64,000 nt of DNA from an uncultured Acidobacteriota bacterium (GCA_963828865.1 CAWHGI010000011.1:14263-78262), one strand, 5' to 3'; numbered from the stretch's first letter, positions 13,423 through 46,078 are shown. The notes: generated by a model from the letters alone, not told the origin. Made by a program: numbers and translations.

Positions 13423-13585
13423 CAGGCGCGCCTTTCAGGACAATGAAAACTCTACTGTACCGCGAGCCGCGCCACAAGCCGTCGGCTCAGCGGCGCTGAG
13501 AACGCTAAGTAGGGGCGCTGCTTGTCGGGGATCCGCCGCAGGAGGGCTGCGCCCCTGGTACGCACGGTTTCCAAAGAATGCGTCG

Positions 13586-15771: not shown

Positions 15772-16243
15772 ATGATCGAGCGTTTCGCAAGATTTCAGCG
15801 GCTGAGCTCTTTCGAGCGCGGCGTCGTCCTCGAAGCGGCGGGCGGGCTGCTCGCCACCTGGCTCGGTTTGCGCCTCATCGGCTTTCGCCGCTGGGAACGC
15901 GTGCTCGCTGTATTCGCGCCGCCAGAAAACGCAACCGCGCTGGCGCCAGCCGCATCGGAGCAGGAGTCCGCGCTCTCTGATCGCGCGGATGGAAGCGGCG
16001 GCGGCGCGTAATGTTTTGTTCCAGCCGAACTGCCTCGAGCAGTCGCTCGTGCTCTGGTGGCTGCTGCGCCGGCGCGGCATCGCCGCGGACCTGCGCATCG
16101 GCGCGCGCAAGGATTCCGACCGCTTCGAAGCGCACGCTTGGGTGGAATTTGGCTCTCAGGTTCTGAACGATGCGGGCGCCGAGCATCGCCATTTCATTCC
16201 GTTCGAGAAGCCCATCCTTTCCATGGAGGCGCGCATCGAGTGA
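15772..16243 (+). pseudogene. Lasso peptide B2 leader peptidase (transglutaminase-like Cys protease), one frame change
   Basis: The N-terminal part MIERFARFQRLSSFERGVVLEAAGGLLATWLGLRL is in frame 1 and stops at 16011. The catalytic part ARMEAAAARNVLFQPNCLEQSL...EAHAWVEFGSQVLND (Cys/His/Asp) is in frame 2. The junction lies near the ctctct run at about 15972-15980. Confidence 0.75.
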
Positions 16244-17957: not shown

Positions 17958-18054
17958 CTCGTACGTTGACAAGTCCGCATTGACGCTGTTCGAAAACGAA
18001 ACGCTTCCGGCGAAGATGGACACCGACGTTCGCCCTCTTTGCCTCAACTTTTGG

Positions 18055-18084
18055 TTGCAGTCAGCGCGCAGAGTCCGGTATAAC
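18055..18084 (+). promoter_or_regulatory. Possible dedicated promoter for the precursor gene
   Basis: TTGCAG (18055-18060), an 18-nt spacer, then TATAAC (18079-18084), about 20 nt upstream of ATG 18104. Confidence 0.25.
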
Positions 18085-18103
18085 TTGCGTGCGGAGGTTC
18101 GCA

Positions 18104-18247
18104 ATGCTTAAGCCCGTAAAACGGGTGAAGAAGCCCTATTCATCTCCTATCATAACGATGTACGGTACGGTTCAGGAGTTGACGCAAAACAAAATGGGTA
18201 GCAGGGGCAACGACGGCGCCAAGAAGCCTAAGAACCGCAGCGGCTAG
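18104..18247 (+). CDS. Candidate lasso-peptide precursor (47 aa; not in the ORF track)
   Basis: MLKPVKRVKKPYSSPIITMYGTVQELTQNKMGSRGNDGAKKPKNRSG. A GGAGG RBS sits 6 nt upstream, and there is an alternative GTG start at 18125 (VKKPY...). The leader fits YxxPx(L/I)xxxGxxxxxTx exactly. The predicted core is NKMGSRGNDGAKKPKNRSG with Asp at position 9. Confidence 0.6.
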   Translation: MLKPVKRVKKPYSSPIITMYGTVQELTQNKMGSRGNDGAKKPKNRSG

Positions 18248-19411: not shown

Positions 19412-19698
19412 TCGAATCCGCCGCATTTACGCCTATCCCACTGAGAGTGGCTCTTTGAATACCGCGTGGTGGAATATTTGGCCCTCTTCGGTTTGGCCGC
19501 CATTTACAGCTATGCTACTATCCCCGTTCAAATGGCGTGTCCGAACCCCATTAAACGGCGCTGGTGTCTGAGCCGGTGGGATAAACCGTCTTCAACAGCT
19601 CAATTTTCATACTCGTGTCTCGATTCCGACGCCACCAAACTCCCTTTTCACTCGCGGTATATCAGGCTTCAGAAATACAGAACATGAGGAGAACCTCC

Positions 19699-22600
19699 AT
19701 GCAGAAGAAATCCCCGCTGGGCAAGTTTGCAGCTTTTGTCGCGGTAGCATTGGTCATTTCCACTTTATTTATATTTGTCATGATCCACCATGGGCGCAGC
19801 GCGGCGCGCGCAGTCTCGTCGCAGTCGGCTGGCGCGGCCGCAACGAAGGCCGTGCCGGCAAACTTCGACTGGACCAAGTACGGCCAGCTTCCTCTCGAGT
19901 TTGAGGCCAATCAAGGCCAGACGGCCCCGGACGTTCGCTTCCTTTCACACGGTGACGGTTACACGCTGTTCCTCACCGGAGACGAAGCCGTCATGACCTT
20001 GCGACAACCCGCACCTGGTTCTGATTCGCGGCTTGGCCGCGCGAAATTCGGCAAAGGCCTCGCCACTCGCGGCTCTGCGGTAAAAGTCTCCGTTCTGCGC
20101 ATGCAGCTCGACGGCGCGAATCCGAACGCGACCGTGTCTGGCGTTGACCGCATGCCCACAAAAGTGAATTACTTCATCAGCAACGACCCGAAGAAGTGGC
20201 ACACCAACGTCCCGGCCTACTCCCAGGTGAAATACCAGGGCATCTATCCGGGCGTGGACCTGCTTTTCTACGGCAACCAGCGCCGCCTCGAATACGATTT
20301 CGTTGTTTCCCCTGGAGCCAATGCGAACCAGATCGCCCTCGATGTCAAAGGTGCGGACAAATTGCAACTCGATCAGAATGGCAACCTGCTGATGAGCGTG
20401 CGGGGCGGCAAAGTCGAGTTGCAGAAGCCGATTATTTATCAGGACGTGAATGGCCAACGCTGCGAGATCGCGGGAAACTACGCCATCACGAATAATCACG
20501 AAGTCCGCTTTGCAGTCTCGGACTATGACTACAACCGGCCACTCACGATCGACCCGGTTTTGAATTACGTCACCTACCTCGGTGGCACGGGGACCGACAC
20601 CGCTTTGGGAATCGCCTTGGATGCGGCGGGAGACGCCTATGTCGCTGGTGTAACTACATCAGCCACGGATTTTCCGACGATGAATCCCGAATCACCAGCG
20701 CCCGGCGACACTGCCTCATTGGGCACCGCATTTATTTCCGAGCTGAACCCCGGAGGCAGCGCGCTCATTTATTCCACATACCTCGGAGGCAGCGGCAATG
20801 GACTGCCAGCCGGAATGGGCGGCATAGGAGATTTGGCTACCGCCATCGCCGTGGACACAGCAACCCCGCCGAATATCTATGTGACCGGCTTTACAGGTTC
20901 TCCGGATTTTCCGGTGAGCACGAACGCCCTGATTGGAAGGCCTGGACCGGGCGGGACGAGCACCGGTGGGTCGGCTTCATAACCAAACTCACTCCATCCC
21001 TGATAGGGACCGCCCAACTTGCTTACTCCACCTATCTGGGTGGCAACACGGAAGACGAGGGAAATGGCATTGCGGTTGATGCCAGTGGCGACGCTTTCGT
21101 CACGGGACTAACGCTATCCACCGATTTCCCGACGACGACAAACGCATACTCTCAAACGGCTCTCAATCCGACGAATGGAGGCGCTTTTCTGACGGAAATC
21201 AATACCGTCACGGGCACGGACGTATATTCGACTTACTTCGGAGGAACAAACGGCGCAGGAAGCATTTACTTGTTCGGTGATGAGGCGTTTGGAATCACCG
21301 TGGACACTAGCTCGAACGCTTACATCGTGGGTACGACTACTTCGGCCGACTTTCCAACGGCCGGACACACCATCAGCTCCTGTACGACCGACACAGCCGG
21401 AATCGCGTTCGTTTCGGTGATTAACACCACCACTCCCGCGCTGACTTATCTCAACCTGTTTGGGCGGCGCGACTACCGAAACCCAGGGTCAGGCCATCAC
21501 GCTGGGCCCTGCGGGGATCGCTTACGTCACGGGTCAAACGACCTCGACAGATTTTCCGGTAACCGCGAATTCCATTCCGGCTCCGGCGGGCTTCGGCGCA
21601 GGCAACGGCGTGGTATTCGTCTCGCTCCTGAACACCACCAGCACCACGCCGAATCAGTATTCGACCCTGTTGGGCGGGAACAACGGCGACATCGGCCTAT
21701 GGCATCGCCGCCGATTCCACGGGCAATGCGTACGTTGGTGGCTCTACGGGCTCAGCCGATTTTCCGCTCACATCTGGCGCGCTGATTCAGTCCAGGAATA
21801 ACGCGTTTGGCACAGGCTTCGTTTCAAAGATCAATCCTGGCGGAAACGGACAGGCCGACTTGCTTTACTCCAGTTACTTTGGAGGCAACGGAGTCGGCGG
21901 TACATTCGACGCGGCTTATGGCGATCGGACGTTTCCGGCACGAACGCGTAATCACCGGTCAAACGGCCTCTTCCGATTTGCCGGTGACCAGCGGCGCATA
22001 TCCAGTCACGCTCAAGAGTACGACGCACGAACGCGTTTGTCGCCGATTTGCCTCTGGTTCCAACGATCTCCGTCTCCCCGACCAGCCTTCCTTTCGGAAC
22101 GCAACTGGTCGGCGACAACAACCGCCCGCGATGTTCGTCACGCTCACGAACAACACGTGATCGGCGATCACGCTGACGATTCCGGCCACAATCAGCGGGA
22201 CGAATCCCGCGGATTTCGCGGAGTCTGCTGGCACTTGCGTGGCCTCGCTGCCTGCAGCAGCCAGCTGCACGATCGGCGCCACGTTCACGCCTGCTGCGGC
22301 TCAAGCGTATATCCGCGACGCTGAAAATCGCGTACACCTTCAGCGGCATCACAGGCACCACGTCTTCAGGTCCCGCTCACTGGAACGGGCAGCACGACCA
22401 TCGCTGCAATCGGCTTCAGCCCCTCCAGCCTCACGTTCGCCGGCCAGCTCCTCACCACCACGAGCGCCGGACAAACCCTCACAGTCAGCAACCCGAGCAC
22501 CGCTAATGCGCTCACGATCACTGCGATCACCGCCAGCACCGACTACACCATCGCCTCGAATTCCTGCGGCGCGGTGCCAATCACCATCGCTGAGTCGCCA

Positions 22601-34099: not shown

Positions 34100-35277
34100 C
34101 GGCAACAACCAAAATCCCGTTCGTGGACCTGCAAGCGCAATACCGGACGATCGCCCCGGAGATCAACGCCGCCATCCAGGGCGTTCTGGATCGCAGCGAT
34201 TATATTCTCGGCGATGAAGTCCGCCTGTTCGAGGAAGACTTCGCGAAATACGTTGGCACCACGCACGCCCTCAGCGTCGGCTCCGGCCTCGACGCCCTGG
34301 AAATTGCCTTGCGCGCCTACGGCATCGGTCCCGGCGACGAGGTAATCACGGCCGCGAACACATTCATCGCCACGGTCTTGGCCATCATCGCCGTCGGCGC
34401 GAAACCCGTGCTGGTGGAAATGGATCCGGCCACCTACAACATTGATCCCTCCGCGATCGAAGCCGCCATCACGTCGCGAAGTCGCGGAATCATGCCGGTG
34501 CATCTCTACGGCCAGCCCGCGGATATGGAACCCATTCTCGCAATCGCCCGAAAACACAACCTGCTGGTGATCGAAGACGCCGCGCAAGCCCACGGAGCAA
34601 AATACGCCGGAAAGTCCGCCGGCTCCTGGGGACATGCGGCCGCCTTCAGTTTTTATCCCGGCAAAAATCTGGGCGCCTATGGCGACGGCGGCATCATCAC
34701 CACCAACGACGCGGCCATCGCCGAAAAGATCCGTTATCTGCGCAACTACGGCCAGAAAGTAAAGTACGAGCACGTCATCGCCGGCACCAATTCGCGCCTC
34801 GATACCATTCAGGCAGCAATTCTGCGGGTGAAGCTGCGGCATCTCGATCGCTGGAACGCGCTGCGCAACGAGCACGCCGCCGCATATAGCGCCGCCCTCG
34901 CCGACGAGCCCTTCGTCCTGCCGAAAATAGCCGCGAATCGCACCCATATCTTTCATCTGTACGTGGTGCAAACTGAAAATCGCGCCGCCATCCAGGAATT
35001 CCTGAACCAGCGTGACATCGCCACCGGAATTCATTACCCGATTCCGATCCACCTGCAGGAAGCCTGCAAGGATCTGGGCTACCGCTGCGGCGATTTCCCG
35101 CTTACGGAGCAGGCCGCCGGGCGCATTTTATCGCTTCCGATGTATCCGGAATTGACGCCGGCGCAGCGGACCTCCGTTGCAGACGCTCTGTTGCAATCGG
35201 TCCGCGGCGCGGCCGAACCGGCCAGCGACGAAGCGAAGTTAGCGGGCACGCGATTCGCGCCTGCGTATGAAGTTTAG
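34096..35277 (+). CDS. DegT/DnrJ/EryC1/StrS-family aminotransferase (WbpE-like)
   Basis: The ATG at 34096 gives [31 protein letters not shown]. Family motifs YGQPADME and [16 protein letters not shown] are present. Confidence 0.85.
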
Positions 35278-36918: not shown

Positions 36919-38436
36919 GTGGCGAGTGTGCTGACCGCGAATCGAGCCGAATTGCAAAGCAAGCGGGAAGGGGCGTTGCGCTTGTGGAAGCCGGACAAAT
37001 ACGAAAAAATCCTGATCGTCCTGTTTCTCCTGACGATTCCCCTCAGCAATCCGTGGGTTCGTGGCGACGGCGTCGGTTACTACGCTTACGCCCGCGCCAT
37101 GCTCATCGAGCATCGCCTGGATTTTCAGAAAGACTGGCAGCATGGCAATGAGAGCTTCGCCATGGGCCGCCTGGACGCGCACGGCAACGTGCTCCCCGAC
37201 GAATACACCTGCACCGGACATATCGCCAATCTCTGGGCCGTCGGCCCTTCGCTGCTTTGGTTTCCGTTCCTCTTTGCAACGCACCTCGGCGTGCTGCTCT
37301 GCGATCGCTTCGGCGCGCACATCGCCGCCGACGGCTTTTCGACGCCCTACGTGGTCACCATGGCTTTCGCCACCGCCTTCTACGGATTTCTGGGCCTGTG
37401 CCTCTCCTTCTCGCTCGCGCGAAAATATTTTGCCGAGCGCTGGGCGCTCCTCGCCACCATCGGCATCTGGTGGGCCAGCTCGCTTCCCGTGTACATGTAT
37501 TTCAATCCGTCCTGGTCCCACGCGCACTCCGCATTCGCCGTGGCCCTGTTCCTGTGGTACTGGAATCGCACGCGCGGCGCGCGCACCATTTCGCAGTGGA
37601 TCCTATTAGGCCTGCTTTCCGGATTTGTCGTGGATGTTTACTATCCCAATGGAGCGCTGCTCGTAATTCCGCTGCTGGAAGGCATCTCCGAATATTGGAC
37701 TGACTTCAAGTCGCCGGCCTATGCCAGCGCGGCCATCGCGCGGCTTTTTGTTCGCCATTTGATCTACGTCGGCGCGTTCGCCGTGGCGCTTCTCCCCACT
37801 TTCGTCACCCGGCACATCATTTTCGGCAATTCGCTGAAGACCGGCTACGCCCCAGTCGGCGGTTGGGCCTGGAAATCCCCCGCGCTCTGGAACGTGCTGT
37901 TCTCCTCGGACCACGGCATGCTCAGTTGGACGCCGATCCTGATTCTCGCGCTGATCGGCTTGCTGCTTTTCGCGCGTGCCGATAAGGCATTCGCGGCCTA
38001 CGCTATCGTGGCTTTCCTGGTTTTTTACGTCGTGGTCTCGGTCCATCCCGATTGGGACGGCATGTCCTCCTTCGGCGCCCGTTTCTTCGTCTCGCTCACG
38101 CCGCTTTTCATTCTCGGTCTCGCTGCCTTCTTCAATTGGCTGGCTGGCGCCTGGCAAGAACATCGCGCCTCCATCGCCGCCACCGCCCTTACCGCGCTGC
38201 TCATCGTCTGGAATTTGGGCCTCATATTTCAATGGGGCGTCCACCTAATTCCCGCACGCGGCCCTATCTCCTGGCGTGATGCCGCGTACAATCAGGTAGC
38301 AGTCGTGCCCGTGCAGGCCACGCGCACGCTGAGATCCTATTTGACCCGGCGCAAACAGCTCATGCACCACATCGAAGAACAAGACGTGCAGCACATCAAA
38401 TCCGGCGAAGCGCCCCGCTCCGCGCCTGCGCAATGA
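36919..38436 (+). CDS. Polytopic GT-C-fold-like membrane protein (ArnT/PMT/GT39-like), putative
   Basis: About 12 hydrophobic segments, and a first periplasmic loop VRGDGVGYYAYARAML. The GTG start (36919 or 36928) was chosen because the upstream gene ends at 36914. Confidence 0.5.
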   Translation: MASVLTANRAELQSKREGALRLWKPDKYEKILIVLFLLTIPLSNPWVRGDGVGYYAYARAMLIEHRLDFQKDWQHGNESFAMGRLDAHGNVLPDEYTCTGHIANLWAVGPSLLWFPFLFATHLGVLLCDRFGAHIAADGFSTPYVVTMAFATAFYGFLGLCLSFSLARKYFAERWALLATIGIWWASSLPVYMYFNPSWSHAHSAFAVALFLWYWNRTRGARTISQWILLGLLSGFVVDVYYPNGALLVIPLLEGISEYWTDFKSPAYASAAIARLFVRHLIYVGAFAVALLPTFVTRHIIFGNSLKTGYAPVGGWAWKSPALWNVLFSSDHGMLSWTPILILALIGLLLFARADKAFAAYAIVAFLVFYVVVSVHPDWDGMSSFGARFFVSLTPLFILGLAAFFNWLAGAWQEHRASIAATALTALLIVWNLGLIFQWGVHLIPARGPISWRDAAYNQVAVVPVQATRTLRSYLTRRKQLMHHIEEQDVQHIKSGEAPRSAPAQ

Positions 38437-39314
38437 ACGCCACCACCCATCCCCCTGCCCATGCGGACGTTCTCGCCGATCCGGCCGTTCCCGTCACGCG
38501 CATCACTCCGCCCGGCCGCTGGTGGATCCTTCCTTTCGGCGAGTTATGGGAATATCGCGAGCTCCTCTACTTTTTTGTCTGGCGCGAGCTGAAAGTCCGT
38601 TACAAGCAAACGGTTGTCGGCGCCGCCTGGGCCGTCCTGCAACCCTTCTTGACCATGCTCATCTTCAGCCTCTTCTTCGGAAAGCTCGCCAACATTCCCT
38701 CCGGCGGCCTGCCTTATCCCGTTTTTTATTACAGCGCGCTGCTTCCCTGGATGTATTTCTCGTCGTCCCTGCAAAACGCCACCGGCAAAATCGTCGAAAA
38801 TCAGAACATGATCACCAAAGTCTATTTCCCGCGCCTGGCCCTTCCGATTTCCGCCGTGGTCTCCGGGCTCGTGGATTTTGCGATATCGTTTCTGATGTTT
38901 GTCGCCATCATGTTCTATTACCACATCCATCCCGGCTGGCCGCTCCTGATGCTTCCCGTTTTCCTGTTGCTCGCCGTGCTCACGGCCCTCGGCGTCGGCC
39001 TCTGGCTTTCCGCCCTCAATGCGATTTACCGCGACGTCCGTTACGTCGTCCCGTTTCTCGTCCAGTTTTGGATGTTCGCCTCGCCCGTCGTCTATCCCAG
39101 CTCCCTGGTCACGGCCAAGTGGCCCAAATGGGCCTGGCTGTACGGATTGAATCCCATGGTCGGCGTGATCGAAGGCTTCCGCTGGTCGCTCACGGGCACC
39201 GGTAACCCGCCCGGCCGCATGCTGCTCGCATCTGCTGTTGCTGTTGTGCTGGTTCTGGTCTGCGGCCTAATGTATTTTCAAAAGATGGAAACTACGATCG
39301 CCGATGTGGTCTAA
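38433..39314 (+). CDS. wzm: ABC-2-type polysaccharide export permease (Wzm/TagG-like)
   Basis: ELWEYRELLYFFVWRELKVRYKQTVVGAAWAVLQP is the ABC-2 signature, followed by six TM segments. The start overlaps the upstream stop (ATGA). Confidence 0.8.
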   Translation: MNATTHPPAHADVLADPAVPVTRITPPGRWWILPFGELWEYRELLYFFVWRELKVRYKQTVVGAAWAVLQPFLTMLIFSLFFGKLANIPSGGLPYPVFYYSALLPWMYFSSSLQNATGKIVENQNMITKVYFPRLALPISAVVSGLVDFAISFLMFVAIMFYYHIHPGWPLLMLPVFLLLAVLTALGVGLWLSALNAIYRDVRYVVPFLVQFWMFASPVVYPSSLVTAKWPKWAWLYGLNPMVGVIEGFRWSLTGTGNPPGRMLLASAVAVVLVLVCGLMYFQKMETTIADVV

Positions 39315-39347: not shown

Positions 39348-40692
39348 ATGACCGAATCCGTCATTCGCGTCGAAGCCTTGGGCAAGCGCTATCGCCTCGG
39401 GGAAGGCCTGCGCCACACCGCGCTGCGCAACTTGCTCGGCGACGCTCTTGCGCGCGCCCCTGCGCCTCCTCACCGGCTCAAGCCGTGCGTCCAACGAGCC
39501 TCCGCGCTCGAGCTCGCCCGCCGGCAGCGCCCCGGCTGACCCAGGCATCGCCGCCAACGGAAGTTCGCGCTTCATCTGGGCGCTCAAAGACATCAATTTC
39601 GAAGTCCGTCAGGGCGAAGTCGTCGGCCTCATCGGCCGCAACGGCGCCGGCAAAAGCACCCTGCTGAAAATCCTCGCCCGCATCACTCGCCCCACCGAAG
39701 GCCACGCCGAAATTCACGGACGCGTCGGCAGCCTCCTCGAAGTCGGCACCGGCTTTCACGCCGAACTCACCGGCCGCGAAAATGTCTACATGAGCGGCGC
39801 CATTCTCGGCATGCGCAAAGCCGAAATAGACCGCAAGTTCGACGAAATCGTGGCCTTCTCCGAAGTCGAGCGCTTCCTGGACACCCCGCTGAAGCACTAC
39901 AGCAGCGGCATGCAAATGCGCCTCGCCTTCGCCGTAGCAGCCCACCTAGAACCCGAAATCCTCCTGGTAGACGAAGTCCTCGCCGTAGGCGACGCCGCCT
40001 TCCAAAAAAAATGCCTCGGCAAAATGGGTGACGTAGCCCGCCACGGCCGCACCATCGTTTTTGTCAGCCACAATATCGCGGCGGTGAAAGCGCTGTGCAG
40101 CAGGGCAGTCATGATTAAAGACGGAACCATCGCGAAATCCGGCGCGGTCGCGGAGGTCGTGGACGATTATTTGCTTGGGCTCTGCTCCCGGCGTGAACGC
40201 TAGAGAATGGCGCGATCCCGCCACTGCCCCGGCAACGAAAGCGTCCGTCTCAACTACATACGCATAATCCCCCCGGAAGAGAACGCCACGATTACCATTG
40301 ATACCGGCGTTTTGATCGAGATCGGATTCGATAACTTGCTGGAAGGCATCAATCTCGATTGCACCGTTTATGTGGCCAGTAGCGACGGCGTCCTTGTCTT
40401 CGAATCAGGCTACATCATCAGTTCGGAAAGTAACTCTCGCGCCGGCTCCTATCATCTGACCGGCCGCATACCGGAGCATTTGCTCAACGCCGGGCGTTAC
40501 TCCCTAAACGTCCTTTTTGGCAAGGATCAGCGCTATGTCCTCTTTCGCATGGATGACGTTATCTTCTTCGAAGTCGAGAACACTTCCACGGGAAGGGGCG
40601 CCAATCTGTCGGTTGCGCCAGGCGTCGTCCGGCCGCTACTATCGTGGCAACACTCCTTCGAGGAGAAATGTCCGTTGGTTAAGGAATCATGA
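39348..40692 (+). pseudogene. wzt: Polysaccharide ABC exporter ATPase with a C-terminal carbohydrate-binding domain (Wzt/TagH-like), split across frames
   Basis: MTESVIRVEALGKRYRLGEG (frame 3) continues as FIWALKDINFEVRQGEVVGLIGRNGAGKST...YSSGMQMRL...ILLVDEVLAVGD (frame 1, TAG at 40201). A short frame-2 stretch AREWRDPATAP follows, then a frame-1 Wzt_C-like beta-sandwich GNESVRLNYIRIIP... to 40692. ATG 40207 could also express the C-domain on its own. Confidence 0.7.
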
Positions 40693-41409
40693 TGAGTCAA
40701 GCCGAAAAGGTCCGGCTGGAAAACATAAGCAACGTTTCGCTCTATTGCGCGGGCGTCAATTCTGCCAGCATAAAATATTCGTTCAAGATAGCCCGGCGCC
40801 ACTTGGTCGGGCGATACCATTCTCGAGCTGGGGCCGGCCGAAGGTGTAATGACCGAACTGCTTGCCGCGACGGGAAAGAAATTGACCCTGGTCGAGGGCT
40901 CGGCTCTATTTTGCGATTCCTTGCGCCGTCGCTTTCCCGGCGCCAACACCGTGAACGCGCTCTTCGAAGAATTCCAGTCCAATGAACTCTTCGACAACAT
41001 CATCCTGGGTCACGTTCTCGAACACGTAGAGGATGCCGTAGACATTTTATCGCGCGCCAAACAGTGGCTTAAACCCGGCACCGGGCGTCTATTCGCGGCC
41101 GTGCCAAATGCTCGCTCCTTGCATCGGCAGGCCGCAGTAATCATGGGGATTTTGCGTGAAGAGGACAGTCTTAATGAGATGGACATGCACCATGGTCATC
41201 GCCGCGTCTTCAATCCCGAAACTTTTCGCAATTCCTTCACTCGAGCCGGTTTGAAAATCGAAATCTTCGGCGGCTACTGGATGAAGCCGGTTTCGAACGC
41301 CCAGCTCGAGGCCTCTTGGACTCCCGAGATGATTGAAGCTTTCATGGTGTTGGGCGAACGCTATCCAGACATCGCGGGAGAGATTTACGTGGTGGCCTCG
41401 CGCGCTTAG
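40689..41409 (+). pseudogene. Class I SAM-dependent methyltransferase, one frame change
   Basis: The N-terminus MMSQAEKVRLEN...FKIARRHLVG is in frame 3. Motif I GDTILELGPAEGVMTELL and the rest are in frame 1. Motif I lies upstream of the first in-frame ATG (40849). The switch is at about 40808-40815. Confidence 0.65.
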
Positions 41410-41415
41410 CTGCGG

Positions 41416-42008
41416 TCAGTCCCTGGCGATCGGTGTACGACGACGCGCCAGGCGGCAAATTGTCGCGTAGTGCCGGGCACGAAGCGCGGGCCAATTCGCA
41501 GACTTAACCCTATGTTCAATCGCTGTCTTGTGCTCGCCTCGAACAAGAAAATGATCTTCCAACACCGCCGTCCTCGAAGCCCCGAAACTGTCGTGGAACG
41601 AAACGACCCGTGGATTTTCGACCAGTGTTCGCGATGATACGCTCGCAAGCCCCAACTTTGAAAATGCCGCTTCGCAGATAAGCCATACGCTCTCCAGCGC
41701 TGCCATCGAGCCCCGCTTCAGAATCCATCGCCCCCACTGAGCGTGCGCAACTTATTTTCGATCTCATAGATTCCTATCGCGCCATGCCGCTCACCGGAAT
41801 CCGCATCCTCGACGATAAAATAATAGTCATCGGGGCGCGCGAAATAACGCTCCAGCCATGCAACTTGGTCCTCGACTCGCGGAGAAATCTCGTGAAGGTA
41901 ACGATTTAGCTGCGGATCGCTGCGTAGTTCCACAATAAACGCTGCATCTCCCAATGTCACAGGGCGTAAGCGGTAGCGCGCGCATGTAACACTGATGCTA
42001 TGTTCCAC
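41416..42008 (-). pseudogene. GNAT-family N-acyltransferase, one frame change
   Basis: GTG start. YRLRPVTLGDAAFIVELRSDP...GAIGIYEIENKLRT then continues in another frame as AQWGRWILKRGSMAALESVWLICEAAFSKLGL...VENPRVVSFHDSFG. The switch is at about 41740-41745. Confidence 0.6.
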
Positions 42009-42238
42009 TCTTTTCCTCGATCGCTTTCACGATTTCATCGGAACTGCGCAACTCCCCCATTTCCTCCTCGCTGAATTGCACTCCGAAATGTTCCTCGAGC
42101 AAAAGGATCAGTTGCACGTGCTTGAGCGAGTCCCATGTTGGTTCGGAGTCGCGTGTTACCGATTCGGCCGGCGCAACCGGGCGTCCAGGTGATGCTCAAT
42201 AACTCGGCGACAGCCGCCTGGATTTCGACTCGGGTCAT
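41998..42238 (-). pseudogene. Acyl carrier protein, one frame change near the N-terminus
   Basis: MTRVEIQAAVAELLSIT, then a shift at about 42185, then GRPVAPAESVTRDSEPTWDSLKHVQLILLLEEHFGVQFSEEEMGELRSSDEIVKAIEEKSGT with a DSL phosphopantetheine site. The ATG overlaps the FkbH-like stop (ATGA). Confidence 0.6.
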
Positions 42239-44091
42239 CCCGTGCGTCTGCTCCCATTTACTTGTGACCGGCGCTCCCAAATGTTCTTTGAGTTGCGGAA
42301 TTGCTTCCCAAAGGGCGGTCGTGAGACTCCCGTCTGAAAGTTGTGCGCTCCGGTAAAATTCGTCAGCCAGATACGCGCCGGCAGATTTCGCGGTCCCTCG
42401 CGAAACCGGAAAGCGACTTCGCGCAATCCGTGCCGTTCGATAATCGGAGCGAGAGCCAGCGCAATCATCGGACTCTCGATGCTTCGTCCCAGCGCGCGGC
42501 AACTGATCGCCACCTCGTCAATCACCAGCCGGTCGCCCTCCGCTCTCGCAAAAATCGCTCCGATGATGCCGCTGTCGCAGAATCTGTCGCGCATCCCTAT
42601 CGAAATCGCGAACTGCCCCGGTTCCTCTAGCCTGCGCGCTACTTCCACTTCGGAGAAGCGCTGCAGCCCCGTGTTGAATTGATTGGTTTTTTGCGAAAGC
42701 TCCGCGAGCCTCCCGCGCGCACTCTTCGAGTTCAACTCATAGGTAATTTCGATCTGCATCTCGCGTATGTAGTCCGCGCTGCTGGCTGCCGACGTTCGCA
42801 AATGTTCGCGCTCGCGCGCTGCCTCCAGATCGTTCACTCGCAGCGCCGTCGCTGAATTCGCGCGATAGCCGTTGAGCGCCGGATAATGCCGCAGCCAGAA
42901 CAGCGTTTGCCCGGGACTCTGCGAGTGCAGCAATGGCGTCGCCGCGTGAGCCGCGCGGAGCTGTGCAATTTCTCCCACATTGTCGTCAACCACAAGAATC
43001 GAATCAACGCCGATATGTAGCTGTTCGGCGATACTCGCCAAGCCTTCCGGTTTCGGACGCCATCCGACGCTGCTCGCCGAGAAATGCGCGGGCTTCAGAA
43101 GGAAATCCGTTCGCTCCTCGCAAAGTTTGATGAAATCGCGCTCGTCGTTCTTGGAAAGCACAGCGAGGAATACGCCCTCGCCTCTCAGCCGCAGCAGTTC
43201 TTTGTAAATGGCTTCGTGTTCGGCGCTGACGCGCACTCCCTCCACGCCGTCTTCTCCCAGCACGCCATCGTAAAGAGTGTTGTCCAGATCAACGGCGATA
43301 GCCTTGATACGCGGAAGCAGGACGCTGGGTAGCTGAACAAGGCCCAGACTGCGGGCCATCTCGATACAAGCGTTGTTGCTCAGTCTTGTGCCCTTGGCGG
43401 CCGCCGCTCGCTCGTCAAAAAATCTCCCGCTCATGTTCCGGAAAATCTCAGCGATATCCCACACGAACACCGAAGGCAGACTGTCGGCAATCTTTTCCAG
43501 CTCGCGATTGAACTCTTCGGCTTCGCGCTCCTCCGACGCCCAATTCGAGACGATGATCGGGCGATCCGTCATCTCCCGCAGCGACTTCAATCGCCCGGCA
43601 AACCAGTCGCGGAATGACGCCGAACCCGCCGTTTCCCCGTACCGCTCGAAGTCCAGCGAAATCAGTTGGATGGCCACAGGGTCAATCTGGGCAAAGCTGA
43701 GGCTGTCGTCATAATCGCTGTACGCGATGCTCGATTTCAGTCCGGACAACCAGAGGAACGGCGCCAGTACACTTCCCACCAGCTCAAACGCATAATTGCG
43801 GTGAACCTGCAAGCGTATCGGAGATAGATTGGGCGGCTCCGGAAGGCGCAAAAGGTCTGCGCGTTTCAGCGACGGTGCCGCTCTCACGTCATCTTCAATG
43901 GTATTCAGCAAGAGCATTGTCGTTGCGCCCATCAGATTATAGCCGACGTCTTGAGAGGCAGCGAACCCTCGATAAATTGCGCCAGGCCGCGACTTCAAAG
44001 TAATATCCCAATGATACGAATCCCCTGCCTGGGGATACCAGAAGAAAGTGGGATACAGCCTGTCTTTGCTGCGAGAACGAAGGCTTTGCAA
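42235..44091 (-). CDS. FkbH-like HAD-IIIC family phosphatase/acyl-loading protein
   Basis: 618 aa and intact. HAD motif I is IAVDLDNTLYDGVLGED, with AVLSKNDE and ILVVDDNVGE also present. The C-terminal GNAT-like region typical of FkbH-like proteins is there (KTNQFNTG...IDEVAISCRALGR). Confidence 0.75.
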   Translation of the reverse strand: MQSLRSRSKDRLYPTFFWYPQAGDSYHWDITLKSRPGAIYRGFAASQDVGYNLMGATTMLLLNTIEDDVRAAPSLKRADLLRLPEPPNLSPIRLQVHRNYAFELVGSVLAPFLWLSGLKSSIAYSDYDDSLSFAQIDPVAIQLISLDFERYGETAGSASFRDWFAGRLKSLREMTDRPIIVSNWASEEREAEEFNRELEKIADSLPSVFVWDIAEIFRNMSGRFFDERAAAAKGTRLSNNACIEMARSLGLVQLPSVLLPRIKAIAVDLDNTLYDGVLGEDGVEGVRVSAEHEAIYKELLRLRGEGVFLAVLSKNDERDFIKLCEERTDFLLKPAHFSASSVGWRPKPEGLASIAEQLHIGVDSILVVDDNVGEIAQLRAAHAATPLLHSQSPGQTLFWLRHYPALNGYRANSATALRVNDLEAAREREHLRTSAASSADYIREMQIEITYELNSKSARGRLAELSQKTNQFNTGLQRFSEVEVARRLEEPGQFAISIGMRDRFCDSGIIGAIFARAEGDRLVIDEVAISCRALGRSIESPMIALALAPIIERHGLREVAFRFREGPRNLPARIWLTNFTGAHNFQTGVSRPPFGKQFRNSKNIWERRSQVNGSRRTG

Positions 44092-44132
44092 TATCGTTTG
44101 AAGATCACGCGCAAACTGGAAAACTCAAGCTC

Positions 44133-44540
44133 ATGAGTCTCGCCAAATGCCGAATTATTGACCTTCCTAAAATCAGCGATCCACGCGGCAACCTCACCTT
44201 CATCGAGGGCGGGCGGCACGTACCCTTTGACATCAAACGCGTTTATTACCTCTATGATGTTCCCGGCGGGGCCGAGCGCGGCGGCCATGCCCACAAGAAT
44301 TTGCACCAGCTCATCATTGCGCTTTCGGGAAGTTTCGATGTGATTTTGGACGACGGCAAACAAAAACAGCGCTTTCATTTGAACCGTTCCTATAACGGAA
44401 TATACGTCTGCCCGATGATCTGGCGCGAACTGGATAATTTCTCATCGGCCTCCGTCTGCATGGTCCTGGCGTCAAACCTCTACGATGAAGCAGACTATTA
44501 CCGGGATTACCAGGAATTCGTTCAAGCCCAAACTCCATGA
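44133..44540 (+). CDS. WxcM/FdtA-family sugar-nucleotide 3,4-ketoisomerase (cupin)
   Basis: 135 aa with DPRGNLTFIE...VKRVYYLYDVPGGAERGGHAHKNLHQLIIALSGSF, a typical FdtA-like sequence. Confidence 0.8.
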   Translation: MSLAKCRIIDLPKISDPRGNLTFIEGGRHVPFDIKRVYYLYDVPGGAERGGHAHKNLHQLIIALSGSFDVILDDGKQKQRFHLNRSYNGIYVCPMIWRELDNFSSASVCMVLASNLYDEADYYRDYQEFVQAQTP

Positions 44541-44589
44541 AACCGTCTTTCTTTGAGGCTCAACGACCAAGAGCGACCCGAAGATTTCA

Positions 44590-45963
44590 TTGAAGCCAAT
44601 TCCACAGCTGAAACAAGATGTATTAGTAAGGTTGGCTGAGTTACGCGACAAGTTTCGCTACGCGAATTTTCGGCCATACAGCCGAGATGGGGTCGTTTTC
44701 GGCATAGGCGATCATGTAGCTTCTATTACCGCGATCCTGGAACGCGGCAATATGGAGATGTTCTTAAAACGTCTCGCAGAGTTAAGTCAAAGATTGTCGT
44801 CGGAACCTCTATGGGGGCGCGCGCTATTCATTCCGGAACTCGACAATCTGTCTCGTAAAGCTGGCAACCTCCTCGCGCCACGCCCTACCGCAAAGACCAA
44901 ATCCAAGCTGCTGGTCTATGTCGCTACCGAGGTTTTCCCTATTGGGGGGCACTCGAACGTTATACAAGATGCCGTCACCGCGCTGCCCGACTACCGTCAC
45001 ACTCTGATTGTAACGGCCATGGATAGATTGCATCCGGCCGTAATGTCCACGAAACTTCGCTTCGAGGCGCTGAATCTGGACGTCCGTTTCCTTACGTGTC
45101 CAAGCCGGGCAGAAAAAGCAAGGGAGTTAGCGTCTCTTACGGGGGGGCTTGCCCCATCGGCGGTTTTGATGCTCGCGAGCTACGACGACAGCGTCGCTTA
45201 TTCGGCGGTGACGGGAGATCCGGCACAGCGTGTGCTATTTCTGCACCATGCGGATCACCAGCCATCATTGGGTGCTTCCCGCTCCGACTACGTCCACGTG
45301 GATTTGACGCCAGCTTGCCACAGTGTCTGCGCATCTCGTCCCGATCTACACGCTTCACTTTTGAATCTGACGGCAAAAGACATTGGCACCGTTCAAATAT
45401 CTGACCGCCATCCCGTCATCGGGGTCACCTGTGGATCGCCTTACAAATACTCAGGATCGATCGAGTTCAGTTATGCCCAGTTAGTGGCGGCGCTGTTTTC
45501 GGCTGGTGTAGCTCGGATGTTCCATGTCGGTGATATGCCCGACTCACAAAGGAATCAAATCTACACAGACACCGTGGCGAATGGCCAAGACCCGAACCGA
45601 CTGGTTTTCCTGGCGAACGTTTCGTCTCTCGCGGCAAAATTGCTCGAAGTGTCTCCCGACTTTTACCTTACGTCGCACCCGCTTGGCGGGGGCAAGGCAA
45701 CCGTTGAGGCCCTGAGTGTGGGATTGCCAGTTCTATTTGTTTGTCCGGCCAGTAGGCCTCCATTGCTGGGTCCGGACATGACGTTCGGATCCGCTATCCC
45801 CATCTCAACCCTTGGGCAAGTTCCCGAAGCGATTCGTAAGCTCGAATCGGAAAAGAGTACCTTAGCAAAACGCAGCCGCGAGATTTACGAAACGCATTAT
45901 TCTGCGAAGGCATTCCGTGAGGGGCTACTTAGAGCGATTAATGGTCACTCTACCCGGTCGTAG
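44590..45963 (+). CDS. Hypothetical protein, possibly a GT-B-fold glycosyltransferase
   Basis: 457 aa with a TTG start and a weak RBS. The C-terminal segment SHPLGGGKATVEALSVGLPVLFV resembles a GT-B donor-binding motif. By eye it is more AT-rich than its neighbours. Confidence 0.4.
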   Translation: MKPIPQLKQDVLVRLAELRDKFRYANFRPYSRDGVVFGIGDHVASITAILERGNMEMFLKRLAELSQRLSSEPLWGRALFIPELDNLSRKAGNLLAPRPTAKTKSKLLVYVATEVFPIGGHSNVIQDAVTALPDYRHTLIVTAMDRLHPAVMSTKLRFEALNLDVRFLTCPSRAEKARELASLTGGLAPSAVLMLASYDDSVAYSAVTGDPAQRVLFLHHADHQPSLGASRSDYVHVDLTPACHSVCASRPDLHASLLNLTAKDIGTVQISDRHPVIGVTCGSPYKYSGSIEFSYAQLVAALFSAGVARMFHVGDMPDSQRNQIYTDTVANGQDPNRLVFLANVSSLAAKLLEVSPDFYLTSHPLGGGKATVEALSVGLPVLFVCPASRPPLLGPDMTFGSAIPISTLGQVPEAIRKLESEKSTLAKRSREIYETHYSAKAFREGLLRAINGHSTRS

Positions 45964-46078
45964 TCTTACGCAGCCCGCCCCACGGTAAATTTCATGTGGG
46001 AATACAGGATATTGTTGCCCGAAACAGACACTCCCGATTGCAGCGGCCCATTAGTTACAGGATAATCTATCTCTTGGG

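What the first reader, a model, noticed from the sequence alone, without database searches (positions are those of the whole stretch)
41416..44091. FkbH-like loader + ACP + GNAT module embedded antisense in the polysaccharide locus
On the minus strand, a 618-aa HAD-IIIC FkbH-like protein (DLDNTLYDG, LSKNDE, VVDDN) is ATGA-coupled to an ACP (WDSLKH). A GNAT acyltransferase follows.

FkbH enzymes are established to take a glyceryl unit from 1,3-bisphosphoglycerate onto an ACP, in the methoxymalonyl-ACP and tetronate pathways.

The module sits next to an FdtA-like ketoisomerase and aminotransferases. This suggests an ACP-delivered glyceroyl or other hydroxyacyl group that is N- or O-linked to an amino sugar. 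ACP-dependent N-acylation has been proposed for the tetronate-perosamine of Vibrio cholerae O1.

I am not aware of such a glycan-decorating FkbH/ACP/GNAT cassette being characterised. The ACP and GNAT each carry one frame change.
Basis: inference. Interest (0 to 1): 0.65.

Follow-up and report, generated by a model that had tools for sequence, protein, structure and literature searches.

The report
Carrier-protein glyceroyl cassette for an amino sugar
Three small genes inside a soil acidobacterium's surface-polysaccharide locus most likely build a three-carbon glyceroyl group on a carrier protein and attach it to an amino sugar; the gene set is widespread and biochemically untested, and this copy is riddled with frame breaks that are probably assembly errors.

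Summary
On the minus strand an FkbH-type protein (42235-43917, 560 aa rather than 618) overlaps by ATGA an 80-aa ACP, which an overlapping GNAT follows. FdtA is transcribed divergently, and the methyltransferase, Wzt and Wzm genes converge on the other side.

The FkbH-like protein keeps every HAD motif and the invariant SCR cysteine shared with PKS-linked FkbH proteins. Its model shows an N-terminal domain, a HAD domain and a GNAT fold. The GNAT's best solved relative is FdhC, the dTDP-Fuc3N N-acyltransferase.

In 83 related loci from more than twelve phyla:
- An ACP is adjacent in 70 of 79.
- GNAT, a VOC protein, FdtA and DegT recur.
- No type I ketosynthase is present.

The most likely function is glyceryl-ACP formation followed by N-acylation of a 3-amino-3,6-dideoxyhexose. 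No enzyme assay of this route was found.

Caveats:
- The window carries eight frame-breaking indels across Wzt, the methyltransferase, GNAT, ACP and the FkbH tail.
- It lacks the VOC gene and a close FdtB orthologue.
- The breaks are probably long-read assembly errors: other genes in the window are broken too, and dN/dS on the window branch is 0.02-0.13. This is unproven.

I rate it a new variant of known kinds and a poor exemplar.

The parts
42235..43917 (-). FkbH-like loader, 560 aa. It has an N-terminal domain (aa 1-200), a HAD-IIIC phosphatase domain (aa ~205-345; D210/D212/T214, S255, K289, D311/D312) and a C-terminal GNAT-fold domain (aa ~385-525) with invariant Cys473 in SCRALGR. The ORF is open upstream to TTG 44091 (618 aa), which is probably not used.
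   Evidence: TIGR01686 238.8 bits. Motif alignment with PKS-type FkbH. 40-sequence invariants. AF2 model pLDDT 88. Foldseek hits: 3slr, MDP-1 HAD phosphatases and GCN5/SpeG GNAT folds.
42246..42343 (-). Out-of-frame patch in the FkbH 3' end. One base is missing near 42343 and one is extra near 42246, relative to relatives. About 32 C-terminal residues are misread, and the frame is restored before the stop.
   Evidence: Protein alignment. Short-read contigs of a 94%-identical strain. tblastn frame switch.
41998..42238 (-). Dedicated acyl carrier protein, about 80 aa. Its ATG overlaps the FkbH stop as ATGA. The phosphopantetheine serine lies in WDSLKH. A 2-nt gap near 42187 shifts the frame.
   Evidence: NCBIfam ACP models 36 bits, below cutoff, and Pfam PP-binding 19.9 bits against a cutoff of 20.8. 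The W-D-S motif is invariant in 71 cassette ACPs.
41416..42008 (-). FdhC-like GNAT N-acyltransferase, about 196 aa. Its GTG start overlaps the ACP end by 11 nt. A 1-nt gap near 41750 shifts the frame.
   Evidence: Pfam Acetyltransf_3 61.9 bits. PDB FdhC 5kta 70.4 bits for the window read-through and 79 bits for the intact L002 orthologue. Indel located.
44133..44540 (+). FdtA/QdtA-type dTDP-4-keto-6-deoxyhexose 3,4-ketoisomerase. It is divergent from the FkbH gene across a 215-bp spacer and is intact.
   Evidence: Pfam FdtA 203.2 bits. PDB 2pa7 FdtA 125.5 bits and QdtA 107 bits. An FdtA lies within 5 kb of FkbH in 41 of 66 loci.
40689..41409 (+). Class I SAM methyltransferase, about 239 aa in relatives. 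It converges on the GNAT with stops 6 nt apart, and its start is ATGA-coupled to the Wzt stop. One extra base near 40807 breaks the frame. Homologues follow the VOC gene in cassettes of other phyla.
   Evidence: Pfam Methyltransf_23. tblastn with L001/L002 MT.. An MT1 homologue lies within 4 kb in 20 of 66 loci.
39348..40692 (+). Wzt ABC-transporter ATPase with the C-terminal Wzt_C glycan-binding domain, about 430 aa in relatives. Here it is in three pieces, with breaks near 39.45-39.52 kb and at 40173 and 40230.
   Evidence: Pfam ABC_tran and Wzt_C. tblastn with L002 Wzt..
38433..39314 (+). Wzm ABC-2 permease, intact.
   Evidence: Pfam ABC2_membrane. Syntenic in L001-L010.
34111..35277 (+). 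DegT-family aminotransferase and nearest candidate for the C-3 transamination step. It sits with a GFO dehydrogenase and a hexapeptide acetyltransferase, so it may belong to another sugar pathway.
   Evidence: Pfam DegT 415 bits. 48% identity to the FdtA-adjacent DegT of L003. Falls outside the main FdtA-adjacent clade.

Best explanation
The minus-strand genes form an acyl-donor plus acyl-transfer module for a nucleotide-activated amino sugar.

**Step 1 (inferred from family chemistry).** The FkbH-like enzyme takes 1,3-bisphosphoglycerate. It forms a phosphoglyceryl and then a glyceryl thioester on Cys473 of its GNAT-fold domain, while the HAD domain removes the 3-phosphate. It then passes the glyceryl group to the phosphopantetheine arm of the ATGA-coupled ACP.

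**Step 2 (inferred from homology to FdhC and from synteny).** The FdhC-like GNAT transfers the ACP-bound glyceroyl group to the 3-amino group of a dTDP-3-amino-3,6-dideoxyhexose. That sugar is made from dTDP-4-keto-6-deoxyglucose by the adjacent FdtA-type isomerase and a DegT aminotransferase.

**Step 3 (weak inference).** The convergent methyltransferase may O-methylate the acyl group or the sugar.

The decorated sugar would be built into a polysaccharide exported by the neighbouring Wzm/Wzt ABC transporter. In effect the usual acetyl-CoA-dependent FdtC step is replaced by a carrier-protein-fed GNAT.

In this assembly the genes carry eight frame-breaking indels. These are more likely long-read consensus errors than real inactivation.
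For: **FkbH-like protein**
- It meets the TIGR01686 cutoff.
- All HAD motifs, KTNQF, DSG and the SCR cysteine are shared with PKS-linked FkbH proteins and domains. These residues are also invariant in 40 diverse glycan-linked members.
- The model shows a HAD domain plus a GNAT-fold domain.
- The OzmB mechanism (phosphoglyceryl-S-enzyme, glyceryl-S-enzyme, glyceryl-ACP) is described in PMC9057759. PMC7489565 describes the same step for tetronates.

**ACP and GNAT**
- An ACP is directly adjacent on the same strand in 70 of 79 loci, with an invariant W-D-S motif.
- The GNAT's top solved relative is FdhC. FdhC converts dTDP-Fuc3N to Fuc3N(R3Hb) (PMC4869667).

**Context across phyla**
- Among 66 loci with at least 3 kb on each side: GNAT in 45, VOC in 49, FdtA in 41, DegT in 44, and FdtA or DegT in 51.
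- GNAT-VOC fusions occur in about 17 loci.
- No KS was found, and none of the large flanking ORFs tested is PKS or NRPS.
- Intact syntenic orthologues exist in close relatives.

**Selection**
- Purifying selection acts on the window branch: dN/dS is 0.13 for FkbH, 0.04 for the MT and 0.02 for FdtA.

**Known glycan chemistry**
- N-glyceroyl and di-O-methylglyceroyl amino sugars exist, and their genes were reported as unidentified (PMC5378307).
- The C. jejuni flagellin glycosylation locus holds an fkbH-domain gene (PMC7099621).
Against: - No biochemical test of any glycan-linked member was found.
- FdhC uses an acyl-CoA, so ACP-dependence of this GNAT rests only on gene linkage.
- The window lacks the VOC protein found in most cassettes. 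It also lacks a close orthologue of the FdtA-adjacent aminotransferase.
- All of Wzt, MT, GNAT, ACP and the FkbH tail are frame-broken here.
- No same-strain reads cover the break sites.
- The identity of the acyl group (glyceroyl or a derivative) and the sugar configuration (Fuc3N or Qui3N) are not determined.
- The 80 GTDB loci were chosen by similarity to the window protein. The glycan association therefore describes this clade, not all FkbH proteins.
Confidence: 0.6

Rival explanations
1. The cassette, together with Wzt and the methyltransferase, is truly inactivated in this organism. The frame breaks are then real and this is a recently decayed remnant of the acylation and export module.
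For: - Eight non-triplet indels lie within about 3 kb (39.45-42.35 kb). About 8 kb of flanking conserved genes (Wza, Wzc, the dehydratase, Wzm, the Wzy-like gene, FdtA) are full length.
- The VOC gene and the FdtA-adjacent aminotransferase are missing.
- Several indels are not in homopolymers.
Against: - Other unrelated genes in the window are also fragmented. These are asparagine synthase at 16.2-18.1 kb and a DUF7948/SBBP protein at 19.6-21.8 kb.
- Related long-read MAG contigs show similar breaks in different genes: L001 Wzt, the L003/L007 GNAT in three pieces, and L027 throughout.
- dN/dS on the window branch is 0.02-0.13.
- No nonsense substitutions or large deletions were seen.
- Short-read contigs of 90-99% identical strains are in frame at the six single-base sites they cover; at the 2-nt ACP gap their contigs break off.
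Confidence: 0.3
2. The GNAT works like FdhC, taking an acyl-CoA (acetyl or 3-hydroxybutanoyl). The FkbH/ACP pair then feeds a different acceptor, for example O-acylation of the polymer or a lipid.
For: - FdhC, the closest solved relative, is an acyl-CoA enzyme (reference 52 of PMC12273574).
- Some loci have FkbH and ACP without a detectable GNAT: 21 of 66.
Against: - Within the Acidobacteriota clade, and in most other loci, no other acyltransferase is conserved with the pair.
- The GNAT follows the ACP with overlapping or abutting reading frames.
- GNAT-VOC fusions sit directly after the ACP in many phyla.
- fdhC loci in enterobacteria need no ACP (PMC4869667).
Confidence: 0.12
3. The FkbH-like enzyme loads, or the cassette delivers, an acyl unit other than plain glyceroyl. 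Candidates are lactyl, pyruvoyl, hydroxymalonyl-derived or O-methylglyceroyl.
For: - Accessory genes vary between loci:
  - a VOC related to methylmalonyl-CoA epimerase;
  - a 430-aa SDR protein in L003/L005/L007, homologous (146.8 bits for L003/L007, 73.0 for L005) to the part of a Burkholderia type I PKS upstream of its FkbH domain;
  - methyltransferases;
  - FabH-like genes in the Helicobacter subtype.
- C. jejuni carries di-O-methylglyceroyl groups (PMC3068675).
Against: - The window has none of the VOC, SDR or FabH accessories. Only the methyltransferase could modify the group here.
- All characterised FkbH enzymes start from 1,3-bisphosphoglycerate (PMC7489565, PMC9057759).
Confidence: 0.2
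4. The module belongs to a polyketide, tetronate or butenolide secondary-metabolite pathway and only happens to lie in a glycan locus.
For: The FkbH family was defined in PKS pathways. Plasmid homologues at about 30% identity sit beside KS, FabH-like, PPTase and AfsA genes.
Against: - No KS was found in any of 83 loci.
- The PKS-type proteins form a separate clade, with 100 SH-aLRT support.
- FdtA, DegT, GT2, Wzm and Wzt recur as neighbours across phyla.
Confidence: 0.02

Closest known systems
FkbH / OzmB / tetronate 'glycerate-utilisation' FkbH-like enzymes with their stand-alone ACPs (methoxymalonyl-ACP and tetronate pathways)
   Same: - Same TIGR01686 domain, HAD motifs and invariant SCR cysteine, and an adjacent small ACP.
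- Expected same chemistry: 1,3-bisphosphoglycerate to glyceryl-S-enzyme to glyceryl-ACP (PMC9057759, PMC7489565).
   Different: - About 30% identity over the FkbH domain only, and a separate clade.
- OzmB is 366 aa and lacks the roughly 200-aa N-terminal domain present here (PMC9057759).
- There are no FkbI/FkbK-type dehydrogenases, KS or FabH partners.
- The glyceryl-ACP is predicted to be consumed by a sugar N-acyltransferase instead of a PKS.
FdhC / QdhC (GNAT 3-hydroxybutanoyl transferases for dTDP-Fuc3N / dTDP-Qui3N; PDB 5kta)
   Same: - Best solved relative of the GNAT, at 70-79 bits.
- Same genomic partners, fdtA and a DegT aminotransferase (PMC4869667).
- Same predicted acceptor and N-acylation step.
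   Different: FdhC uses free 3-hydroxybutanoyl-CoA and has no dedicated ACP or loader. Here the GNAT is translationally linked to an ACP and an FkbH-like enzyme, and in many phyla it is fused to a VOC domain.
FdtA-FdtB-FdtC / QdtA-QdtB-QdtC pathway to dTDP-Fuc3NAc / Qui3NAc
   Same: An FdtA-type isomerase is present (125 bits to 2pa7). The family-level link to a DegT aminotransferase is present too.
   Different: The left-handed beta-helix N-acetyltransferase FdtC is replaced by the GNAT/ACP/FkbH trio. In the window itself the fdtB-like gene is not adjacent.
Campylobacter jejuni NCTC 11168 flagellin glycosylation genes around cj1302 (fkbH domain; cj1301 annotated as an epimerase)
   Same: An fkbH-domain gene lies in a glycan-modification locus of an organism whose glycan carries 2,3-di-O-methylglyceroyl N-acyl groups (PMC7099621, PMC3068675). 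Helicobacter and Campylobacteraceae loci turned up among the relatives.
   Different: - The acceptor there is a nonulosonic acid (Pse), not a 3-amino-3,6-dideoxyhexose.
- That subtype has two ACPs plus FabH-like, SDR and hexapeptide genes.
- The role of cj1302 itself was not found to be tested.
Vibrio cholerae O1 tetronate-perosamine genes (rfbK-O) and Neisseria PglB2 glyceramido sugar
   Same: Both are dedicated routes that put an unusual hydroxyacyl amide on an amino sugar. From my own knowledge, the V. cholerae route includes an ACP-like protein. The Neisseria glyceramido sugar is mentioned in PMC10425976.
   Different: From my own knowledge, neither uses an FkbH-type loader: V. cholerae uses a ligase/reductase-type set and Neisseria an ATP-grasp domain. 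No such domains occur in the cassette genes.

Membership tests
FkbH domain family (TIGR01686 / HAD-IIIC) | Profile match above the curated cutoff over the whole domain | tested here: met
   238.8 bits against a cutoff of 146.65, covering profile positions 3-317 of 323. TIGR01681 scores 59.1 against 35.75.
FkbH domain family (TIGR01686 / HAD-IIIC) | HAD catalytic motifs (DxDxT, S/T, K, DD) | tested here: met
   D210-L-D212-N-T214, S255, K289 and D311-D312 are conserved in the window, in glycan-type relatives and in five PKS-type sequences.
FkbH domain family (TIGR01686 / HAD-IIIC) | C-terminal acyl-transfer domain with a conserved cysteine for the glyceryl-S-enzyme intermediate | tested here: met
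   SCRALGR with Cys473 is invariant in 40 relatives and present in all PKS-type sequences. The domain models as a GNAT fold. I did not verify from a paper that this exact cysteine is the acylated residue.
FkbH domain family (TIGR01686 / HAD-IIIC) | Dedicated stand-alone ACP partner | tested here: met
   ATGA-coupled ACP in the window. Adjacent in 70 of 79 loci.
FkbH domain family (TIGR01686 / HAD-IIIC) | Uses 1,3-bisphosphoglycerate to form glyceryl-ACP | not testable with these tools
   Needs an enzyme assay with MS of the ACP.
Methoxymalonyl-ACP / tetronate pathway (PKS-linked FkbH systems) | Linked KS/PKS, FabH-like condensing enzyme, or FkbI/FkbK-type dehydrogenases | tested here: not met
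   phmmer with KS and PKS queries from L085-L088 found no KS in 83 loci. FabH-like hits occurred mainly in the Helicobacter/Campylobacteraceae/Gastranaerophilales subtype, plus L023, L037 and L078, and none in the Acidobacteriota clade. No KS, FabH-like or FkbI/FkbK-type dehydrogenase domain appeared in Pfam scans of 44 window ORFs.
FdhC/QdhC-type GNAT sugar N-acyltransferase | Sequence relationship to FdhC | tested here: met
   5kta_A at E=1.6e-18 (70.4 bits) for the window read-through and E=3.7e-21 (79 bits) for intact L002. The next PDB hit scores below 30 bits.
FdhC/QdhC-type GNAT sugar N-acyltransferase | Co-located fdtA/qdtA and fdtB/qdtB | tested here: inconclusive
   FdtA is adjacent. 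Family-wide, GNAT with FdtA or DegT occurs in 40 of 45 GNAT-bearing loci. In the window the only DegT genes are 6 and 28 kb away and lie outside the main FdtA-adjacent clade.
FdhC/QdhC-type GNAT sugar N-acyltransferase | Acyl-CoA as donor | not testable with these tools
   Gene linkage suggests an acyl-ACP donor instead. An assay is needed.
Acyl carrier protein (PP-binding) | Profile match and conserved phosphopantetheinylated serine | tested here: inconclusive
   The serine motif W-D-S-L is present and invariant in the family. Scores are below curated cutoffs: PF00550 19.9 against 20.8, and TIGR00517 34.8 against 70.45.
FdtA/QdtA 3,4-ketoisomerase | Profile and solved-structure similarity | tested here: met
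   PF05523 203.2 bits. 2pa7 125.5 bits and 4zu7 107.4 bits. Galacto or gluco product was not determined.

The most novel reading that the evidence does not exclude
FkbH-ACP pairs coupled to FdhC-like GNATs, with optional VOC, methyltransferase or DH-KR-like partners, may be the general and so far unassigned route by which bacteria of many phyla place glycolysis-derived C3 hydroxyacyl amides on nucleotide-activated amino sugars. Such amides include glyceroyl, O-methylglyceroyl and lactyl. This would be the first carrier-protein-dependent N-acylation of an NDP-sugar. It would also supply the missing genes for the N-glyceroyl sugars of organisms such as Tannerella, Vibrio vulnificus and Campylobacter.
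Probability: 0.5. Interest if true: 0.7.

Novelty: new variant of a known kind. Interest (0 to 1): 0.5.

Why it matters
N-glyceroyl and related hydroxyacyl groups on bacterial amino sugars shape antigenicity and recognition by phages and lectins. A 2017 study stated that the responsible genes were still unidentified (PMC5378307).

This cassette joins two well-understood enzyme types into a testable pathway:
- FkbH-type glyceryl-ACP loaders from polyketide biosynthesis.
- FdhC-type sugar N-acyltransferases from O-antigen biosynthesis.

The pathway recurs in glycan loci of more than twelve phyla, including cultured strains. Confirming it would have three consequences:
- It would extend carrier-protein chemistry into nucleotide-sugar tailoring.
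- It would allow glycan structure prediction from sequence.
- It would offer parts for glycoengineering.

This particular copy adds little beyond another instance. It is frame-broken in the assembly and lacks two usual partners.

Tried and rejected
The rest of the genome could not be searched for rmlA/rmlB, an fdtB orthologue, a PPTase or second copies.

**Frame-break question**
- I tried to settle it with public reads. The best runs hold only 27% of the sampled words.
- At 98% likeness or above, no contig covers any indel site.
- Only contigs of 90-99% identical relatives were informative.

**Literature**
- Searches for FkbH with O-antigen, capsule or polysaccharide, and for HAD-IIIC, gave no characterisation.
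- The FdhC paper (PMC5095703) is not held.

**Other checks**
- The first iterative HMM for GNAT and VOC mixed the two domains because of the fusions, so I rebuilt it from unfused sequences.
- My GNAT C-part dN/dS used a wrong frame and is discarded.
- The promoter and terminator scan of 41.3-44.2 kb gave nothing usable.
- The 457-aa ORF after FdtA has no family or PDB match.

**Readings rejected**
- PKS linkage.
- A phosphatase-only reading of the FkbH-like protein, because the Cys/GNAT-fold domain is conserved and the ACP is coupled.


Full report
**1. What is in the sequence**

The minus strand between 41416 and 43917 carries three tightly packed genes.

- *FkbH-like gene.* The long ORF 42235..44091 is real. 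All 120 listed relatives are about 555-565 aa and begin at the equivalent of ATG 43917 (MLLLNT...), so the protein is 560 aa and not 618. It scores 238.8 bits on TIGR01686 'FkbH domain' (cutoff 146.65) and 59.1 bits on TIGR01681 HAD-IIIC.
- *ACP.* The FkbH TGA overlaps the ATG of an 80-aa acyl carrier protein as ATGA at 42235-42238. The ACP carries the serine motif WDSLKH.
- *GNAT.* The ACP end overlaps by 11 nt the GTG start of a roughly 196-aa GNAT (Pfam Acetyltransf_3, 61.9 bits).
- *Neighbours.*
  - On one side, FdtA (44133-44540, Pfam 203 bits) is transcribed divergently.
  - On the other side, a methyltransferase, Wzt and Wzm converge on the GNAT.
  - The surrounding 24-54 kb is a polysaccharide locus. 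It holds Wza, Wzc, an NDP-sugar dehydratase/epimerase, GFO, a hexapeptide acetyltransferase, GT2s, DegT and WbsX.

**2. Frame breaks**

I compared the window with intact orthologues (L001 89%, L002 82%, L003 72% identical FkbH).

There are six more:
- Two compensating single-base indels at about 42343 and 42246. They put the last 32 residues of the FkbH-like protein out of frame.
- One in the methyltransferase near 40807.
- Three in Wzt, near 39.5 kb and at 40173 and 40230.

Short-read contigs of 90-99% identical strains from soil metagenomes are in frame at the six single-base sites they cover; at the 2-nt ACP gap near 42187 their contigs break off. No contig of 98% likeness or better covers any of the sites, so the question is not settled by reads.

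Evidence that the breaks are consensus errors:
- Other genes in the window are also fragmented. Asparagine synthase is cut after residue 65 of its synthase domain, and a DUF7948/SBBP protein is split.
- Related contigs from the same kind of long-read MAG collection are broken in different genes. Examples are L001 Wzt, the L003/L007 GNAT in three pieces, and L027 throughout.
- The window branch shows strong purifying selection. dN/dS is 0.13 for FkbH, 0.04 for the methyltransferase and 0.02 for FdtA.

Evidence that they are real:
- Eight indels cluster in 3 kb, while about 8 kb of flanking conserved genes are full length.
- Several indels are not in homopolymers.

I put artefact at about 65%.

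**3.

I aligned it with five PKS-associated sequences recovered from plasmids:
- An ACP plus HAD-IIIC pair beside a KS gene in S. griseofuscus pSGRIFU1.
- Two KS / FabH-like / HAD-IIIC / ACP / PPTase / AfsA operons.
- FkbH domains inside type I PKSs of Rhodococcus and Burkholderia sp. FERM BP-3421.

The window protein keeps DxDxT, S, K and DD, plus the KTNQF, DSG and SCRxLxR motifs, including the only universally conserved cysteine. These residues are also invariant in 40 diverse glycan-linked members.

An AlphaFold model (pLDDT 88, pTM 0.87) has three domains:
- An N-terminal domain plus HAD domain resembling B. fragilis BF1531 (3slr).
- A HAD core resembling MDP-1.
- A C-terminal GNAT fold that carries Cys473.

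This fits the published OzmB scheme of phosphoglyceryl-S-enzyme, glyceryl-S-enzyme and glyceryl-ACP (PMC9057759). OzmB is only 366 aa, so the N-terminal 200 residues here are an addition relative to that enzyme.

**4. The GNAT points to the acceptor**

Its best solved relative by far is FdhC of Acinetobacter nosocomialis (5kta). The score is 70 bits for the window read-through and 79 bits for the intact L002 orthologue, and the next hit is below 30 bits. FdhC is the GNAT-superfamily sugar N-acyltransferase that converts dTDP-Fuc3N, made by FdtA and FdtB, into Fuc3N(3-hydroxybutanoyl) (PMC4869667; reference 52 of PMC12273574). The window FdtA scores 125 bits against A. thermoaerophilus FdtA and 107 bits against QdtA.

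**5. Survey of related loci**

One scan of one genome per GTDB species returned 80 loci. They come from:
- Acidobacteriota
- several Pseudomonadota classes
- Myxococcota
- Thermodesulfobacteriota
- Campylobacterota
- Bacillota
- Verrucomicrobiota
- Actinomycetota
- Nitrospirota
- Gemmatimonadota
- Elusimicrobiota
- Bacteroidota
- Melainabacteria
- other phyla

I searched them with profiles built from the window's own proteins.

| Feature | Count |
|---|---|
| ACP directly adjacent on the same strand | 70 of 79 |
| ACP with invariant W-D-S motif | 71 of 71 |
| GNAT within 3 kb | 45 of 66 |
| Glyoxalase_4 (VOC) protein | 49 of 66 |
| FdtA within 5 kb | 41 of 66 |
| DegT within 7 kb | 44 of 66 |
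| FdtA or DegT | 51 of 66 |
| Homologue of the window methyltransferase | 20 of 66 |

The 66 loci are those with at least 3 kb of sequence on both sides.

- GNAT and VOC are fused into one 326-343-aa protein in about 17 loci.
- The recurrent order outside Acidobacteriota is FdtA, FkbH, ACP, GNAT, VOC, (MT), DegT.
- No type I ketosynthase occurs in any locus, and none of the large flanking ORFs tested is PKS or NRPS.
- On a tree the glycan-linked proteins form a clade separate from the PKS-linked ones, with 100 SH-aLRT support. The loci were selected by similarity to the window, so this describes the clade and not the whole family.

**6. Mechanism proposed**

- *Shown.* Domain content, residues, gene coupling, cross-phylum synteny and the FdhC relationship.
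- *Inferred from synteny and homology.* The GNAT moves the ACP-bound acyl group to the 3-amino group of a dTDP-3-amino-3,6-dideoxyhexose, replacing the usual FdtC-type acetylation.
- *Weak inference.* The methyltransferase O-methylates the group, and the product enters a Wzm/Wzt-exported polymer.

The window lacks the VOC gene and the SDR gene found in some relatives. It also lacks a close orthologue of the FdtA-adjacent aminotransferase. Its two DegT genes, at 34.1 and 12.3 kb, are 48% and 44% identical to that of L003 and fall outside the main FdtA-adjacent clade. The pathway may therefore be incomplete here, or completed from elsewhere in the genome, which I could not search.

**7. Comparison with what is known**

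- N-glyceroyl and di-O-methylglyceroyl amino sugars are known in Tannerella, Vibrio vulnificus and Campylobacter. A 2017 paper said the genes were unidentified (PMC5378307).
- The C. jejuni 11168 flagellin glycosylation locus contains the fkbH-domain gene cj1302 and an 'epimerase', cj1301 (PMC7099621). Its flagellin carries di-O-methylglyceroyl-pseudaminic acid (PMC3068675).
- I found no paper that tests an FkbH-type enzyme in glycan biosynthesis.
- Earlier notes of this scan describe the same cassette type in at least 20 other genomes with the same reading. These are unchecked AI notes and not independent evidence.

**8. Verdict**

The cassette is a new combination of two known enzyme kinds, it is widespread, and it has not been tested biochemically. 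This copy is a weak exemplar because of the frame breaks and the missing partners.

Noticed in passing
window 16170-18111 and 19615-21785: Two unrelated genes look frame-broken. Asparagine synthase stops after 65 of 354 positions of its synthase domain, and two overlapping ORFs in other frames follow it. A DUF7948/SBBP beta-propeller protein is split into at least two ORFs. This suggests general indel noise in the assembly.
   Followed up: partly
window 40000-46000 versus flanks: - G+C dips to 0.53-0.58 against about 0.60-0.61 on either side.
- Synonymous divergence between the window and L001 differs sharply along the locus: 0.25-0.33 in FkbH, GNAT and MT, 0.71 in FdtA, and about 2.0 in Wza.
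- The acylation module therefore appears to have been exchanged recently between lineages whose export genes are much older.
   Followed up: partly
window 42186-42353: Contigs of related strains from three soil runs all break off exactly at 42186 and 42353 and continue with unlike sequence. That sequence matches the variant C-terminal tail of P0002. The FkbH tail plus ACP N-terminus is a strain-variable patch, and it coincides with three of the window's indels.
   Followed up: partly
L003:10777-12069, L007:12780-14072, L005:7860-9341: In these Acidobacteriota relatives the position after the GNAT holds a SDR-containing protein (430 aa in L003/L007) where other relatives carry the VOC. It is homologous (146.8 bits for L003/L007, 73.0 for L005) to the part of a Burkholderia sp. 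FERM BP-3421 type I PKS that lies upstream of its FkbH domain. It may turn glyceryl-ACP into a reduced C3 unit such as lactyl.
   Followed up: no
L023, L028, L033, L044, L047, L048, L050, L052, L068, L080: The Helicobacter, Campylobacteraceae and Gastranaerophilales loci, together with one Alphaproteobacteria MAG (L023), form a distinct subtype. Most have an ACP upstream of FkbH; the set variously adds a second ACP, a VOC, FabH-like proteins, a roughly 250-aa SDR and hexapeptide transferases. This resembles the cj1298-cj1304 region of C. jejuni as I recall it.
   Followed up: no
L078:6585-9362 (-): In a Desulfovibrio MAG a single 925-aa ORF combines a DegT aminotransferase domain (residues 349-697) with a GNAT domain (748-884), next to ACP and FkbH. 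This fusion hint links the aminotransferase and acyltransferase steps.
   Followed up: no
window 44590-45963 (+): A 457-aa ORF lies 50 nt after FdtA, where relatives carry DegT or GT2 genes. It has no Pfam, NCBIfam or PDB sequence match, and a homologue in only one of 83 loci.
   Followed up: partly
window 12316-15219 (-): A second DegT aminotransferase sits next to a second ABC-2 permease and ATPase pair, 27 kb from the cassette. The Wzt of L002 is 36% identical to this ATPase.
   Followed up: no
L002:10477-10905 and 49 of 66 loci: The Glyoxalase_4 (VOC) partner belongs to the Pfam family that, from my own knowledge, includes methylmalonyl-CoA epimerase. It is separate or fused to the GNAT. 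Within the Acidobacteriota clade it is present in L002, L004, L006, L008 and L010 and absent in the window, L001, L005, L007 and L009. Its role is unknown; it may epimerise or dehydrate the acyl thioester.
   Followed up: partly
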